Source: Octopus sinensis
Lineage: Eukaryota
DNA length: 9,950 bases
Assembly: GCF_006345805.1 (NCBI RefSeq)
Contig: NW_021827831.1
Location: 1-9,950, forward strand
Direction: 5' to 3'
Below, piece by piece: positions 181-8,900 of this stretch (positions are counted from its first letter, which is position 1; each line of letters begins with the position of its first letter). The notes under the pieces were generated by a model. The model was given only the letters and a program-made list of their open reading frames with translations, made no database searches and was not told the DNA's origin. The position numbers and the translations under genes are program-made.

Positions 181-1040
181 CACTATTATAAACCCCTTTT
201 TGTATATGTATCTGTATGCATTATTTTTATACCACTTTTTCTTGTATATTCATATTAATTAATATCTATGTATTATCCTTATCTTATAATCCTGCTTCTG
301 ATTCATTACTCTTGATCAATAGATAATATGTATATCTTTCCAGATATTCCATGCGTAAGTGGTTTGATTGGTCTTTATAGACATAACCAAATAATTTATT
401 AATTAAGCTAAGATCAGACATTAAATTGATTCTACATAATATTAATCTTCCTTTTAATGTTTATAACGATTCGTAAACACATTTTGGCAACTTGGTTAAG
501 ATAACACTATCTAGAATTTTATTTTGTTCTTATACAACATAATATTATTGTTTATAAGCGTTTCTTCCACTGATCCCCTAATATTTTCTTGAATCTCAGT
601 CTAGCATCCTAAGTTTCATAGTGTTTGCCCCTTTAACTGCTAATAACATCATGGATTAATGTCACCCTACCCAACCTCTTTTATAGAAATTACTTCTAAT
701 TGACACTTTCTAAAGTTTTGCTTCTTTTTCATGTGGGTAGAGGGGCACTTTGACAATATTTATGTCCAATGCCCAGCGATGACATGTCAACTCATTTTGC
801 TTTTTATTCTAAATATACACAGTCTTCTAGTCTCAAATTTCAGTTTATGATAAAGAGACAGATAAATTGGAAATGAATTACAACCTCACTGTGTTCCATG
901 CCAATCTATAAAAAAATATAGTCCGTTCTCTTAGCTATTCTTTCTACGATAGCGACATGAATTTCTTCCATCTTCTTCCTCTTTTAAAATATTTAAGAAA
1001 ACTTATATTTATGTATCTTGTCTGTTGAAGTTCCATATTT

Positions 1041-1290: not shown

Positions 1291-1460
1291 GTGAAGGCGT
1301 GTGGCTTAGTGGATAGGGCATTCGGCTTACGACTGTAAGGACGTGAGTTCAATTCCCGGCGACACGTTGTGTCCTTGAGCAAGACACTTTATTTCACGTT
1401 GCTCCAGTCCACTCAGCTGGCAAAAATGGGTAGTATCTGTATTTCATAGGGCCGGCCCTA
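1291..1460 (+). mobile_element. tRNA-derived CORE-type SINE, 3'-truncated
   Basis: A box TGGCTTAGTGG (1302-1312) and B box AGTTCAATTCC (1346-1356). The following gttgtgtccttgagcaagacact..ccagtccactcagctggcaaaaatggg (1366-1430) resembles the MIR/CORE domain consensus (tgtgaccttgggcaagtcactt..cagtttcctcatctgtaaaatggg). Confidence 0.8.
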
Positions 1461-3034: not shown

Positions 3035-3260
3035 ATCGTGGTCCTTCTAATGTCCTCAGTCTGGGGGTGTTCCACATCCCCACTCTTGTATGTGCCTCTG
3101 TCCCAGCAGAGGCACATACTTGATGTATAAGGGAGTTTGATTTCGCTGCCCTCGTCTGCACCTCATTTAAATAAAATCTTTGATTCAAAGACACTCTATA
3201 CTTGGAATGACCAATTTTAAATACTACTGGAATTTACTCACAAGGTACTGGAATCTTAAA

Positions 3261-3678
3261 GGCGCAGGAGTGGCTGTGTGGTAAGTAGCTTGCTAACCAA
3301 CCACACGGTTCCGGGTTCAGTCCCACTGCGTGGCATCTTGGGCAATTGTCTTCTGCTATAGCCCCGGGCCGACCAATGCCTTGTGAGTGGATTTGGTAGG
3401 CGGAAACTGAAAGAAGCCTGTCGTATATATGTATATATATATGTGTGTGTATGTGTGTGTGTTTGTGTTTGTCCCCCTAGCATTGCTTGACAACCGATGC
3501 TGGTGTGTTTACGTCCCCGTCACTTAGCGGTTCGGCAAAAGAGACTGATAGAATAAGTACTGGGCTTACAAAGAATAAGTCCCGGGGTCGAATTGCTCAA
3601 CTAAAGGCGGTGCTCCAGCATGGCCGCAGTCAAAGGACTGAAACAAGTAAAAGAGTAAAAGAGTAAAGAGTAAAGAGT
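3261..3678 (+). mobile_element. Apparently full-length tRNA-derived SINE with internal microsatellite and (AAGAGTA)n-type tail
   Basis: A box TGGCTGTGTGG (3271-3281), B box GGTTCAGTCCC (3314-3324), CORE-like cttgggcaattgtctt, an internal (TA)/(TG) tract at ~3424-3465, and a tandem tail at 3646-3678. Partial copies occur at 2974-3034 and 7294-7424. Confidence 0.9.
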
Positions 3679-3819
3679 GTATACCATTCTACCTAAAAAA
3701 TGGATCTACAAATGCAATATCCCTGCATATCTCACATCTATTTTCTCTTATTTCCTCCACTTCACTCTCTATTTTATATCTTATCTAAATTAACTATTTC
3801 TTAACCACCCTCTCGCACC

Positions 3820-3867
3820 GTCTCCGATGAAGGGATATAATAAATATCCTGGAAACAGCTGTAAGAC
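3820..3867 (+). ncRNA. Minimal type-I hammerhead ribozyme, U4C core variant
   Basis: Stem I gtct(3820-3823)/agac(3864-3867); core CCGATGA(3824-3830); stem II gggatat-aataa-atatcct; GAAA(3852-3855); palindrome CAGCTG; triplet GUA with predicted cut after 3863. Confidence 0.72.
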
Positions 3868-4191
3868 CTTTTATTTATAAATGTTCTAAAATCTACACAG
3901 CCTTGGTTTTTTTTATCGCATTACGAAAAAAAAAATTATATACGCACGCTGACATATGACCGACGTTGAACCTCTTATTCTCATAATCACCGAACCTGGA
4001 ACTTAACTGTGATTCATCTATAGCACTTATTCAGTGCTATAGATGGACCAATATACTGCTGGTAGTATATCCAATATACTGCAGGTAGAATACCCAATTA
4101 TTAATACACAAGTGATTTTTATTGCATTGCAATTACATTACCTAGTGTACTAAATGGGTGAAGGTAAAGAGATATTTTACCAGTAATTTAT

Positions 4192-4478
4192 AGAGCAATA
4201 AGAAAATGGAGGGGATCAATAGGTGGTTCATCAACTTTTAGACATTATATTATGTCTATTTATTTATTTACTAAAATGACAATTATAACAATATACATAC
4301 ATGTATAACATATCATGCTTTACATATATAATATATAAAATACAAAAATATCAGAAATTATTAAGATGTATAACATACAAGAATAGAAATGGAGAAAATA
4401 AATAAATAAATTGACTTAATATAACGTCTAAAAGTTGATGAATACCACATATTGATCCACTCCATTTTCTTATTGTTC

Positions 4479-4479
<1 letters not shown>
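4192..4479. repeat. Inverted repeat pair, ~80-bp arms (4192-4270 / 4399-4479)
   Basis: agagcaataagaaaatggaggggatcaataggtggttcatcaacttttagacattatattatgtc is the near reverse complement of gacttaatataacgtctaaaagttgatgaataccacatattgatccactccattttcttattgttct. Confidence 0.93.
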
Positions 4480-4542
<63 letters not shown>

Positions 4543-4557
4543 ATATATATATATATA
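4478..4557. repeat. Compound (TCTG)n-(TC)n-(TA)n microsatellite
   Basis: Direct reading of the sequence. Confidence 0.95.
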
Positions 4558-4730
4558 GTGAACGTACGTGGACTAGTGGTTAGGGTGTTGTCCATCACGA
4601 TCATAATGTCGTGCGTTCGATTTCTGGATCAGGTGGCACGTTCTGATCTTGAACGGGGTACTTCGTTTCTCATTACTTCAGTCCGTTCAGCTGTAAATGC
4701 GTACCAACCTTCTGCTGGTGTTGATCCAAC
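4558..4730 (+). mobile_element. Old, diverged tRNA-derived CORE-type SINE
   Basis: A box TGGACTAGTGG (4569-4579), B-box-like GTTCGATTTC (4615-4624), and a decayed CORE (..ttcagtccgttcagctgtaaatgcgtacc). Collinear with 1291-1440. Confidence 0.7.
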
Positions 4731-4763
4731 TACGCTCTCTCTCTGTATCTTCTACCCGGTGCG

Positions 4764-4927
4764 CCCATTAAATCTTTTGTTTAATTGTTCTGTTGTACAA
4801 CCAACATAATTCAAGTTGTGTTTCGTGCATTTTGCCGCGTACACCAAATGGGAATCTCTACATGTCCCACCTTCAGTATAAATTATAACATTTCTGTTGT
4901 GATTTCTGATGGAATTCACTTCAATCG
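4764..4927 (-). pseudogene. N-terminal half of PLE GIY-YIG endonuclease (inverted segment)
   Basis: The minus-strand ORF reads IIYTEGGTCRDSHLVYAAKCTKHNLNYVGCTTEQLNKRFNG, fitting the C....(V/I)Y...C......Y(I/V)G.T...L..RFNG pattern of PLE endonucleases. Confidence 0.88.
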
Positions 4928-4928
4928 T

Positions 4929-5180
4929 GGGTACAGATTCGACGCCAGGCACAAATAACAGTAGTTCGACAGAACTTGCTGAACATTTCGTTTCAAGTAG
5001 CTGCAATTTTGAAGAAGACTTGAAAGTGCATATTCTCAGAAAATATTCCGAATCTGCTACACTTTCACTTCTCAAAATGCATGAGGAGAAATATGTTTGC
5101 GGGTTATTAACATCACGTCCTCGAGGAATGAATAAAATGACAGGAGAATATCATCAAATTGATACAAGACTGATTAAATA
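4929..5180 (+). pseudogene. C-terminal half of PLE GIY-YIG endonuclease
   Basis: GYRFDAR, then after a frameshift TELAEHFVSSSCNFEEDLKVHIL..HEEKYVCGLLTSRPRGMNK. This matches the A.HF..DL.V.IL..E..(W/Y)IC.L.T..P.G(L/M)N pattern, including the conserved Glu and Asn. Confidence 0.88.
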
Positions 5181-5440
5181 TTCTTTCTCTCTTTTTCTTT
5201 CCTCTTTTTTTTTGTCTCTTTTTTCTGTCTTCTACTTTTTGCCTGTTATAAAATTGAAACTTAAAGACTGGTGATGTCGTTCCATCAACGTGTGGACGCT
5301 GGTTGCTCTCGTTCATACTTCAAATTTAAGTTTCTATAATTTTGGATTTTTATCACTTCTTATTTTGAACGACAGATTTGCTGTCGAAATATCGTTCAAC
5401 CAATAAAATATCTATTGCAATCGCATCGCGCTCTTCGTCT

Positions 5441-5457
5441 AACAACAACAACAACTA

Positions 5458-5510
<53 letters not shown>

Positions 5511-5573
5511 TACTACTGCTGCTGCTGCTGCTGCTGCTACTATTACTACTACTACTACTACTATTACAACAAT

Positions 5574-5640
<67 letters not shown>
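5441..5640. repeat. Compound trinucleotide microsatellite (AAC)-(TAC)-(TGC)-(TAC)-(AAC)-(AAT)
   Basis: Direct reading of the sequence. Confidence 0.97.
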
Positions 5641-5641
<1 letters not shown>

Positions 5642-6174
5642 AATGCCCTGATGCAGTACCAGGCAATGGCTCTCATGGCATCTGATTGGAAGTGTTATCA
5701 TGTACATTGTTTTGTCTTGGTATAAAAGACGGGCTACAGCAAATATTCTGCTCAATCCCTCAGATTTGCTCGTCAGTTGTTTGACCTTAACCAGTTGAAC
5801 ATGTCTCTTGGTGGCTGACGATATGTGCATCTCTGATCACGAGCAGAAGTAGTGGGGGAGCATCATAGCCATGTGTTGAGAGGGATTCTTTGGAGTTTGA
5901 ATAATTCACCTCTGGAAACATGGGTGTTTCATCATCCTTAAACGACCTTTATTCAGGGACCTTTTGAGCGGGATGGGCTGCAGTAGATTCTAACTGGGCC
6001 CCACCTGCAAGGTCATGTGCTGTTTATCTTGATATGAAATCAACATGTTGCGCACATATGGTTGTGATGCATGTGCCTGGTGTACCCTTATGACGGGTAG
6101 TCATGATGGGTATACAGGGCTTCGTATATTTGTACCCCAGTGTCACTTTGATGGCATGCGTTGCTCTCTCACTC
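5641..6174. mobile_element. Probable non-coding interspersed element embedded in (AAT)n
   Basis: A ~530-bp complex block, more GC-rich than its surroundings, with sharp edges and AAT repeats directly on both sides. No coding motif or Pol III boxes recognised. Family unassigned. Confidence 0.55.
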
Positions 6175-6181
6175 AATAATA

Positions 6182-6235
<54 letters not shown>

Positions 6236-7293: not shown

Positions 7294-7424
7294 CTTTAGT
7301 CGAATGAGTCGACCTCAGTGCTTACTCTATCGGTCTCTTTTGTCGAACCGCTAAGTTACAGGGACGTAAACACACCAGTACCGGTTGCCAAGCGTTGGTA
7401 GAGGACAAACACAGACACAAACAC
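7294..7424 (-). mobile_element. 3'-half fragment of the SINE family at 3261-3678
   Basis: The reverse complement matches ~3460-3606 (gtgtttgtcc..ggtgtgtttacgtccc..cttagcggttcg.caaaagagac.gataga..gtcga..actaaag). Confidence 0.88.
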
Positions 7425-7490: not shown

Positions 7491-7639
7491 TTGGGTATGG
7501 TAAATGAGTTCGGCAAAAAATTTAGATTCAGGTGAATATGGTACTTAAGTTGAGGCACCAGAATTTAGTACGGTATTATCAATACAATTTCAAAGTAAGG
7601 TGATTAAAATCAAAATAGCAACAAGGATATCCAGAGGTA

Positions 7640-7728
7640 ATGCAGCACGATCATTTCATGCAACTCCATTTAATTGAACAATGCAATCATTACATCAATT
7701 TAAAATGCAGTGCAATCCTCAACTGCAC
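7640..7728 (-). ncRNA. Mutated hammerhead copy (probably inactive)
   Basis: The minus strand reads gtgcag-TTGAGGA-stem II-GAAA-TGATCG-TG-ctgcat: C3U, a broken palindrome and a GUG triplet. Confidence 0.65.
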
Positions 7729-7783
7729 AAAGACATATACTAATGTGTCCATCTGTTCTAATTTAATTTAATTCTCTGTCTTT

Positions 7784-7872
7784 GTGTAGCTGAGGATTGC
7801 TCTGCATTTTAAATTGATGTAATGATTGCATTGTTCAATTAAATGGAGTTGCATGAAACGATCGTACTGCAT
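7784..7872 (+). ncRNA. Type-I hammerhead ribozyme with intact core, long stem II and palindromic minimal stem III
   Basis: Stem I gtgtag(7784-7789)/ctgcat(7867-7872); CTGAGGA(7790-7796); stem II tgc/gca, cattt/aaatg, aattga/tcaatt; GAAA(7855-7858); CGATCG; triplet GUA with predicted cut after 7866. Confidence 0.8.
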
Positions 7873-7904
7873 TACCTCTGGATATCCTAGTTGCTTATTT
7901 TGAT

Positions 7905-7965: not shown

Positions 7966-8055
7966 TATATGTATATGTATATATAATATATAATATATAT
8001 ATATAGATATATGTATGTAATATATATGTATTATGTATATATGTATGTATGTATA
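7905..8055. repeat. (TA)/(TACATA)/(TATG) microsatellite
   Basis: Direct reading of the sequence. Confidence 0.93.
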
Positions 8056-8121
8056 CTGTAGTACCGTGGTTACGAACGCCTCTGATCACGATAAATCGTG
8101 CCTTATCTATCTATCTATCAT

Positions 8122-8171
<50 letters not shown>

Positions 8172-8265
8172 TATATATATATATATATATATACATACAT
8201 ACATATATATATAAAGCACACGATTTATTCGTGATCAGAAGCATTCGTAAACCGAGTTACTACTG
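8056..8265. mobile_element. pogo/Tigger-like MITE with ~45-bp terminal inverted repeats and a (TA)n interior
   Basis: Left end ctgtagtaccgtggttacgaacgcctctgatcacgataaatcgtg (8056-8100). The right end (8219-8265), reverse-complemented, reads cagtagtaactcggtttacgaatgcttctgatcacgaataaatcgtg. A CAGT..CTCGGTTTACGAA start is Tigger-like. TA flanks the left end and CA the right. Confidence 0.72.
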
Positions 8266-8300
8266 CATGTATAATCAAAACATCATAACGATAGTATAGA

Positions 8301-8718
8301 GAATTATACATCACCCAAATTTATTTATTACAATTTTTCTTCTCATTAAATTCCAATTCCACACGTGTCACTGTTGAATAATCGTCATAATGTTCTTTGA
8401 TGTTGCATCTACGGACATTTCGTTGATGCAGTTGCAACAAATATGCATCCGAGGTAGACGCTCTTGTGCATATTTGTTTAAGGTGTTAACCGTTCGGGTG
8501 GTGGGTGAAGCAATCTCAACCGATTGCATAAAACCCTTGAACAAAACTGCGCATGTATGTCTTCCCGCTGATGAAAAAGCGCCGCAGCTGATTCAACTAA
8601 AAGTTCATAAATGCTTACGTCAAAGGAAATTAGGACAACTACTGAGCAGAAACACGTGTCGGAATGGAATTTAATGAGAACAACACAGCAATAAACAGAT
8701 TTTGATGATGCATGATTC
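8301..8718. repeat. Diverged inverted repeat pair, ~68-bp arms (8301-8368 / 8652-8718)
   Basis: The left arm reverse-complemented, acacgtgtggaattggaatttaatgagaa..aataaa..tgatgtataattc, aligns with the right arm acacgtgtcggaatggaatttaatgagaa..aataaa..tgatgcatgattc. Confidence 0.85.
8562..8664 (+). ncRNA. Degenerate type-I hammerhead ribozyme with long stem II
   Basis: CTGATGA(8568-8574)..GAAA(8649-8652)-CACGTG palindrome-TC (GUC triplet). Stem I ttcc/ggaa is out of register and stem II is eroded. AATAAA follows at ~8690. Confidence 0.55.
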
Positions 8719-8900
8719 CTAATTCGTCTATGGCGTATGAAATCCTTTGAAGTAAACCCTGGATTTACCTGTCAAGTGAAGAACCCTTTAATTGTTTATC
8801 ATTAACAGTTCTCTGTGTTCCGTATCTTTCGGGGCGGTTGACCACATCTGGATTATATCACAGTATTAATAAGGTGCCTGCTCGGATTCCACATCCCTGT

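What the first reader, a model, noticed from the sequence alone, without database searches (positions are those of the whole stretch)
4764..5180. GIY-YIG endonuclease split across opposite strands by a precise inversion with 4-nt overlap
Seen: the minus-strand segment ends ..aga ttt aaT GGG (RFNG; ccca at 4764-4767) and the plus-strand segment starts TGGG tac aga ttc gac (4928-). Flipping 4764-4927 and joining on the shared TGGG gives ..YVGCTTEQLNKRFNG-YRFDAR..TELAEHF with no loss of sequence at the junction (one later frameshift near 4950). Known: 5' inversions arise by twin priming in L1, and PLEs also produce inverted 5' segments. Inference: this is a record of the PLE insertion mechanism that allows a nearly complete endonuclease domain to be rebuilt.
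Basis: partly seen in the sequence, partly recalled or inferred. Interest (0 to 1): 0.7.

Follow-up and report, generated by a model that had tools for sequence, protein, structure and literature searches.

The report
Penelope retroelement fossil with 5' inversion
This is a dead fragment of a Penelope-type jumping gene whose first 160 bases are flipped with no coding sequence missing at the joint, likely because its copying enzyme primed twice on one RNA as human L1 does, although a flip between short inverted repeats would explain it nearly as well.

Summary
4764-4927 (minus) and 4928-5178 (plus) encode consecutive parts of one GIY-YIG endonuclease. Of 20 proteins found with the plus half alone, 11 also match the minus half. 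Joining on the shared 4 bases gives the 16-residue spacing of six close relatives, plus one extra base 20-25 nt downstream. An RT-containing relative with a C-terminal endonuclease and cysteine linker makes it a Neptune/Nematis-type Penelope-like element; a hammerhead-like motif without its core follows.

The mechanism is unsettled. The geometry is L1-type twin priming (complementary arms), not the usual Penelope head-to-head duplication. But no target-site duplication was found, the left junction is GC-rich, and 15 bases left of the flip resemble upstream element sequence (8 of 12 positions, p 0.002-0.012). That favours a flip between short native inverted repeats. No DNA-level uninverted copy was obtained.

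Odds: twin priming about 0.5, microhomology flip about 0.35. My searches found no paper on twin priming in Penelope elements; permuted inverted halves were reported in a rotifer. The scan earlier noted twin-priming-like geometry in a coral Penelope-type insert on other DNA. One decayed copy: a lead for a genome-wide survey, not a demonstration.

The parts
4558..4703 (+). SINE-like host flank, left of the insert
   Evidence: aligns with a second copy at 1291-1432, score 88 against a shuffled maximum of 32; 'tRNA-derived SINE' is a recalled label
4749..4763 (+). ambiguous 15 bases: target DNA, or a short forward piece of the element (end of the cysteine linker)
   Evidence: 8 of 12 determined positions match P0003-compatible DNA, p 0.0017 unshifted and 0.012 best of 7 registers; 1-4 of 12 in registers that keep the intact frame; no profile score
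4764..4767 (-). left copy of the 4-base overlap (CCCA, reverse complement of 4928-4931)
4764..4927 (-). inverted segment: N-terminal part of the GIY-YIG domain (both core strands to the R-F-N-G motif); homology secure to about 4921
   Evidence: no stop codon in frame
4928..5178 (+). forward segment: rest of the GIY-YIG domain to the end of the ORF
   Evidence: no stop in 4954-5178
4952..4956 (+). one extra base (frameshift), independent of the inversion point
   Evidence: 49 nt where relatives have 16 codons; frame change in the profile alignment
5179..5440 (+). likely 3' untranslated region / pseudo-LTR of the element (inferred; ends not fixed)
   Evidence: follows the ORF end, holds the hammerhead-like motif and an AATAAA near 5402; no family consensus to set the boundary
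5365..5399 (+). minimal-hammerhead-like motif with stem I (6 bp), stem II (5 bp) and the GAAA..UH side, but without the CUGANGA core
   Evidence: 0.017 such hits per shuffled set; descriptor written after seeing the motif; fold z -1.87; no Rfam hit
5441..5640 (+). compound trinucleotide microsatellite on the right side; may hide the right junction and any target duplication

Best explanation
This is a dead, 5'-truncated copy of a Penelope-like retroelement (C-terminal GIY-YIG type) whose first 160 bases are inverted with a 4-base overlap, likely made during insertion by twin priming on one sense RNA. Shown: the two segments are consecutive parts of one endonuclease domain, arranged head to head, complementary rather than duplicated. 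Inferred steps: the endonuclease cut both target strands. One end primed at the element's 3' start site and copied the RNA back to TGGG at 4928. The other end, finishing in CCCA, primed internally at that same UGGG and copied about 160 bases further upstream. The two cDNAs were then joined, possibly with a few filler bases at 4922-4927. A one-base insertion and loss of the hammerhead core would be later decay.
For: Geometry equals the L1 twin-priming pattern: the downstream end of the inverted piece faces the left flank and ends where the forward piece starts. In L1, 17% of 5'-inverted insertions have a duplication at this point (10.1101/2024.08.27.596794, passages), with overlap quartiles of 4 and 17 bp (PMC12016303, passages). 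The left flank has no profile match to the upstream linker (best -0.7 bits), fits the intact-frame registers at only 1-4 of 12 positions, and is SINE-like up to 4703, so the inversion sits at or within about 20 bases of the 5' end of the insert, as an insertion-time event predicts. A purified PLE protein cleaves and extends both target strands and starts reverse transcription internally (PMC11167929, parts 1-2 of 4).
Against: No target-site duplication: the best direct repeat across the insert scored p 0.09-0.13, while L1 inversions mostly have 10-20 bp duplications (PMC4245944, passages). No primer pairing beyond 4 bases (p 0.18-0.23). Bases 4749-4763 match P0003-compatible upstream element DNA at 8 of 12 positions (p 0.0017; 0.012 allowing 7 registers), and homology at 80-85% identity is not rejected (P 0.21, 0.09). 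The left junction is GC-rich, whereas the purified PLE (another clade) cut AT-rich DNA and primed without homology. In cell assays 5' inversions were nearly confined to L1 in human cells. It is a single copy.
Confidence: 0.5

Rival explanations
1. Microhomology-mediated inversion: the copy inserted with a 5' end near 4745-4750, and the 160 bases between two short native inverted repeats (CCA or CCCA upstream, TGG or TGGG downstream) were flipped by a template switch, either during second-strand synthesis or later in DNA replication or repair.
For: The two 4-mers are inverted repeats that exactly bracket the flipped part, which alone explains a joint with no loss. P0003's upstream residues are real element sequence: theirs is the only one of 6092 stretch-frame combinations that allows the C-x-x-C-x-x-M-S linker end in a shifted frame. 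The window's left flank matches that DNA at 8 of 12 determined positions (codons -4 to -2 p 0.003-0.004). This model does not depend on a target duplication at 4764.
Against: The match is in a register that shares P0003's frameshift, not the intact frame (4 of 12 at the expected 2-base offset). It fades beyond 7 codons. It was seen with one of five relatives that reach upstream; P0023 gave p 0.02 at 8 codons unshifted and the other three p of 0.1 or more. It was noticed after looking. Per-codon support is 1.5-1.8 bits over 3 codons and at most 0.4 over 7, against 2.3-2.5 inside the segment. A purely post-insertion flip would have to land within about 20 bases of the 5' end of a roughly 680-base insert.
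Confidence: 0.35
2. Remnant of the usual PLE head-to-head structure (self-priming or a second RNA), trimmed by later deletions, so that the inverted arm and the forward arm meet at one point by coincidence.
For: Inverted 5'-truncated arms are common in PLEs (PMC8557442, passages), and microhomology-mediated deletions disable many copies (PMC3846280, section 11).
Against: No inverted pLTR remnant left of the flip (p 0.99). Two independent deletions would have to meet within 4 bases in register (chance of the 4-base match 0.003-0.005).
Confidence: 0.08
3. Library or assembly chimera: the flip exists only in the assembled sequence.
Against: It needs two false junctions 160 bases apart. A 4-base repeat is too short to mislead a graph assembler (general knowledge). 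In a rotifer, similar permuted inverted halves were supported by small-RNA polarity (PMC3846280, passages).
Confidence: 0.05

Closest known systems
Canonical C-terminal EN+ Penelope-like elements, Neptune/Nematis type (PMC8557442)
   Same: GIY-YIG domain at the ORF end; relative P0023 has RT upstream and a CX5CxxC linker; hammerhead-like motif in the 3' region; strong 5' truncation; microsatellite at one side.
   Different: The inverted 5' piece is complementary to the forward piece, not a duplicated pLTR arm. In the window and in P0023 the second Cys of the CCHH motif is His. The hammerhead core is missing. No tail or target duplication identified.
[quoted passage not shown]
   Same: Head-to-head complementary arms at the 5' end, short duplication at the breakpoint, inverted arm shorter than the forward arm.
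   Different: Different enzyme (telomerase-like RT with GIY-YIG nuclease), no poly(A) tail, no 10-20 bp target duplication found, no L1 cut-site motif.
Adineta vaga Pen3 copies with permuted, overlapping 5' and 3' parts in inverted orientation (PMC3846280)
   Same: A PLE ORF that can be traced from two overlapping halves on opposite strands.
   Different: Those were near-complete elements on detached contigs with little flank, read as circularly permuted; no twin-priming reading appeared in the passages and section seen. Here it is a short copy inside flanking DNA with a 4-base overlap.

Membership tests
C-terminal EN+ Penelope-like element | GIY-YIG endonuclease domain | tested here: met
   3 of 11 relatives pass the Pfam PF01541 cut-off. 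The window's minus half alone is below it (14.5 bits, E 0.046). Both halves align to these relatives.
C-terminal EN+ Penelope-like element | Single ORF with RT followed by C-terminal EN | tested here: met
   Met through a relative, not in the window: P0023 (593 aa, E 1.8e-52, 1 of 3720 candidates) has RVT_1 at 84-254, and the halves match its residues 464-513 and 525-579 (42% and 32%). The window holds no RT.
C-terminal EN+ Penelope-like element | CCHH zinc-finger motif with two Cys between the GIY and YIG strands | tested here: inconclusive
   The window and P0002, P0009, P0016, P0023 have C-x-x-H; P0017 and P0018 have C-x-x-C; one His position is Tyr in the window.
C-terminal EN+ Penelope-like element | Catalytic R, H, E, N residues beyond the core | tested here: inconclusive
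   Arg, Glu and Asn positions are present; the His after R-F-N-G is Tyr in the window, P0002 and P0014. Assigning positions to catalytic roles rests on recall.
C-terminal EN+ Penelope-like element | Hammerhead ribozyme in the pseudo-LTR | tested here: inconclusive
   Stems I and II and the GAAA..UH side at 5365-5399, core absent; no Rfam hit.
C-terminal EN+ Penelope-like element | pLTR as direct or inverted terminal repeat; 30-40 bp tail | tested here: not met
   Only one 3' region is present; no inverted copy on the left (p 0.99). Expected for a 5'-truncated single copy; the tail cannot be placed without a consensus.
Neptune/Nematis clades | CX2-5CxxC linker upstream of the EN | tested here: met
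   In relatives only: P0023 has CX5CxxC, P0016 and P0018 have CxxC, P0003 allows it in a shifted frame. Truncated away in the window.
Neptune/Nematis clades | RT phylogeny places it in Neptune rather than Nematis | not tested
   No reference RT set was on hand.
Naiad/Chlamys (N-terminal EN) | EN followed by a KR-rich/CxC linker and RT | tested here: not met
   Relatives P0009, P0016, P0017, P0018 and P0023 end 10-25 residues after the G-M/I-N motif.
Twin-priming insertion (L1 type) | Inverted arm at the 5' end, complementary to the forward arm, with a small gap or overlap | tested here: met
Twin-priming insertion (L1 type) | Target-site duplication around the whole insert | tested here: not met
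   Best candidate p 0.09-0.13 for 5220-5460 and 0.57-0.69 for 5400-5700. A microsatellite on the right may hide it, and some PLE insertions lack one.
Twin-priming insertion (L1 type) | Host DNA, not element DNA, directly left of the inverted arm | tested here: inconclusive
   No profile score, but an 8 of 12 match to P0003-compatible DNA.
Twin-priming insertion (L1 type) | Microhomology between target end and RNA at the second priming site | not testable with these tools
   The 4 bases could be target-derived or copied; an empty site is needed. Nothing beyond 4 bases (p 0.18-0.23).

The most novel reading that the evidence does not exclude
Penelope-like retroelements twin-prime in vivo: both cut target strands prime on the same sense RNA, one at the normal 3' start site and one at an internal site. 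The usual head-to-head PLE arms would then be the common case (both ends priming at the preferred site) and this locus the rarer case with internal second priming. That would argue for a sense template, against the proposed antisense self-priming model, and could be tested by counting complementary-arm copies genome-wide.
Probability: 0.3. Interest if true: 0.55.

Novelty: new variant of a known kind. Interest (0 to 1): 0.3.

Why it matters
How Penelope-like elements form their inverted insertions is still open: one paper proposes self-priming on an antisense template (PMC3846280), and the only in vitro work stops after first-strand priming on both strands (PMC11167929). A copy with complementary arms has a geometry that self-priming does not give directly and that a sense-RNA twin-priming model predicts. 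If such copies recur, with breakpoints clustered at 5' ends and target microhomology, they would extend twin priming beyond L1 to an unrelated enzyme. Alone, this decayed copy has no function and cannot separate insertion-time priming from a later small inversion.

Tried and rejected
No whole genome is held for the window, so family copies and the empty site could not be searched. Word-based protein searches with each half found nothing (0 of 31 and 0 candidates). The Atlas gave no usable hit, and there was no PDB sequence match. Sequencing runs: 24 listed, 20 hold part of the stretch, the best share of words is 0.32, no RNA holder listed; none was laid, so this is no evidence either way and the junctions lack read support. 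DNA relatives: metagenome scan 1 weak locus of 240 stretches (L001, 25 residues; not used); viral contigs 0 of 13; prokaryote genomes 0 of 21. Rfam found no hammerhead in 3200-6200. A first strict hammerhead scan missed both motifs and was replaced by a looser descriptor written after seeing them. Rejected as not significant: a target duplication based on the 8-mer at 4748/5228 (p 0.09-0.13), longer primer pairing (p 0.18-0.23), an inverted pLTR (p 0.99), all. Rejected: two different families, and loss at the joint; Naiad type (EN is C-terminal). The profile used the last 210 residues of 14 proteins, one of which (P0034) lacks the EN region and only adds noise. Literature: no paper holds both 'Penelope' and 'twin-priming'; three hold Penelope, retrotransposon, inversion and 'twin priming', each naming Penelope once, seen as listings only; further searches. 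Most subscription papers, including the 2005 and 2006 PLE reviews and the 2001 twin-priming paper, are outside the library. The supplement of PMC8557442 held no match to a 4-residue family motif. A repeat library deposited outside the paper (PMC13282606) and bioRxiv supplements could not be seen and may hold the family consensus. That the host is an octopus-like mollusc is a guess from the recalled look of its SINEs and microsatellites; it was not tested.

Full report
Setting. The window is AT-rich animal-type DNA full of microsatellites and SINE-like repeats. No genome is held for it, so every comparison with intact copies had to go through proteins. That the host is octopus-like is a recalled guess and plays no part in the argument.

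1. The observation. CCCA stands at 4764-4767 and TGGG at 4928-4931. The minus frame of 4764-4925 is open and ends in R-F-N-G, and the plus strand resumes at the same Gly codon. A phmmer search with the plus half alone (4954-5139) returned 20 proteins at E up to 0.001. Eleven of the 20 also match the minus segment in tblastn against the window, with residue ranges that run on in order: P0002 1-51 then 61-108, P0006 3-55 then 63-115, P0008 117-166 then 175-220, at 51-69% identity. Of the other nine, most begin at or after the joint or have unrelated N-termini; P0010 begins at the second core strand and gave no minus hit. Across the joint the F-to-E spacing is 16 residues in 6 of 12 relatives examined, 15 in five more distant ones and 19 in one. 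The flipped window gives 49 nt, i.e. 16 codons and one extra base. A profile of 14 natural proteins covers columns 74-135 in one frame after flipping (74.2 bits, against 66.6 bits and columns 74-125 unflipped) and 133-202 in the next, which puts the extra base at about 4952-4956. A 4-base match at given breakpoints has a chance of 0.003-0.005. The last few bases of the inverted part (4922-4927) match poorly (4 of 8 determined positions in codons 0-2 against 6 of 7 inside) and may be filler.

2. What it is. Three of 11 relatives pass the Pfam GIY-YIG cut-off; the window's own minus half does not. A profile search among longer proteins gave one hit of 3720 candidates, P0023 (593 aa, E 1.8e-52). 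It has a reverse transcriptase at 84-254, a CX5CxxC linker and the endonuclease at its C-terminus; the two halves match its residues 464-513 and 525-579. By the clade features in PMC8557442 (passages) this is a C-terminal EN+ Penelope-like element of Neptune/Nematis type; RT phylogeny was not tested. Downstream, 5365-5399 has stems I and II and the GAAA..UH side of a minimal hammerhead but no core (descriptor written after seeing the motif; fold z -1.87; no Rfam hit). This fits a decayed pseudo-LTR (PMC4209133, parts 1-2 of 4). The copy has no RT, a frameshift and a broken ribozyme: it is a fossil.

3. How the inversion arose. The arms are head to head and complementary. This differs from the inverted 5' arms described for PLEs, which duplicate the 3' end (PMC8557442; PMC3846280); no inverted pLTR is found on the left (p 0.99). 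It is the geometry of L1 twin priming, where 66% of inverted insertions have a small deletion and 17% a small duplication at this point (10.1101/2024.08.27.596794), with overlap quartiles of 4 and 17 bp (PMC12016303). A purified PLE protein cuts and extends both strands and starts reverse transcription internally (PMC11167929), so the chemistry is plausible. Under twin priming both new strands are antisense to the ORF, so the template would be sense RNA (inference).

Results against this reading. No target-site duplication was found (best p 0.09-0.13), nor primer pairing beyond 4 bases (p 0.18-0.23). The left junction is GC-rich, while the purified enzyme, from another clade, cut AT-rich DNA and needed no homology. 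In cell assays 5' inversions were seen only for L1 in human cells, apart from one Nimb-2 insert (PMC4245944). Most important, the two 4-mers are inverted repeats bracketing the flipped part, so a template switch between them also gives a joint without loss. That model predicts forward element sequence left of 4764. The profile finds none (best -0.7 bits), and the flank is SINE-like to 4703. But P0003, the closest relative in this region, carries the linker end in a shifted frame (1 of 6092 stretch-frame combinations), and 4749-4763 matches P0003-compatible DNA at 8 of 12 determined positions (null share 0.0017 of 10672; 0.012 for the best of 7 registers). The match is in the register of P0003's frameshift; registers that keep the intact frame give 1-4 of 12. 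It fades after 7 codons, was seen for one of five relatives, and was noticed after looking. Homology at 80-85% identity is not rejected (P 0.21, 0.09), at 90% it is (P 0.026). I put twin priming at 0.5, a microhomology flip (at insertion or later) at 0.35, a trimmed head-to-head remnant at 0.08 and a chimera at 0.05. Read support for the junctions and a DNA-level uninverted copy were not obtained (scans gave no usable relative), and these are what would decide it.

4. What is known. PLE fragments and their inverted insertions are well known, and so are L1 5' inversions. The nearest PLE precedent I saw is two rotifer Pen3 copies with permuted, overlapping halves in inverted orientation (PMC3846280). 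I found no paper applying twin priming to PLEs (0 papers; 3 listings, each naming Penelope once), but the library lacks most subscription papers, including older PLE reviews. PMC4476161, PMC2837659, PMC9977147, 10.64898/2026.07.22.740005 and PMC13282606 were seen as passages and added background only. It prompted the test for an inverted pLTR here, which was negative; I did not check that locus.

5. Verdict. The feature is real and is a new variant of a known kind: an L1-like, complementary-arm 5' inversion in a decayed Penelope-like copy. One locus without a target duplication cannot show the insertion mechanism. Interest 0.3; 0.55 if a genome-wide survey showed that PLEs twin-prime on sense RNA (probability about 0.3).

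Noticed in passing
window 3820-3867 (+): A second minimal-hammerhead-like motif with a core one base off consensus, 7-bp stem II and 4-bp stem I, in a T-rich stretch; probably the 3' end of another Penelope-like copy (0 such hits in 60 shuffled sets).
   Followed up: partly
window 7612-7735 and 7777-7900: Inverted arms of 124 nt, 94% complementary, 41 nt apart; MITE-like. A 78% copy of one arm lies at 1069-1159.
   Followed up: no
window 8478-8771 (-) and 8054-8270: A minus frame that looks like a pogo/Tigger transposase remnant (recalled resemblance; no Pfam hit), next to short inverted ends around a TA microsatellite.
   Followed up: partly
window 1291-1432, 4558-4703, 3253-3660, 7316-7404: Several SINE-like repeats; the first two align with each other, and 3474-3562 is an 85% inverted copy of 7316-7404.
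   Followed up: partly
window 284-460 (-): Frame resembling the C-terminal part of a LINE RT (recalled resemblance; no Pfam hit).
   Followed up: partly
proteins P0002, P0009, P0016, P0023 and window 4764-4925: This PLE lineage has C-x-x-H where the CCHH motif normally has C-x-x-C between the GIY and YIG strands; P0023's cluster has 39 members, several on megabase contigs.
   Followed up: no
window 5249-5267 and 5324-5343: Imperfect inverted repeat and a TATA-like word near 5248 in the likely pseudo-LTR (read).
   Followed up: no
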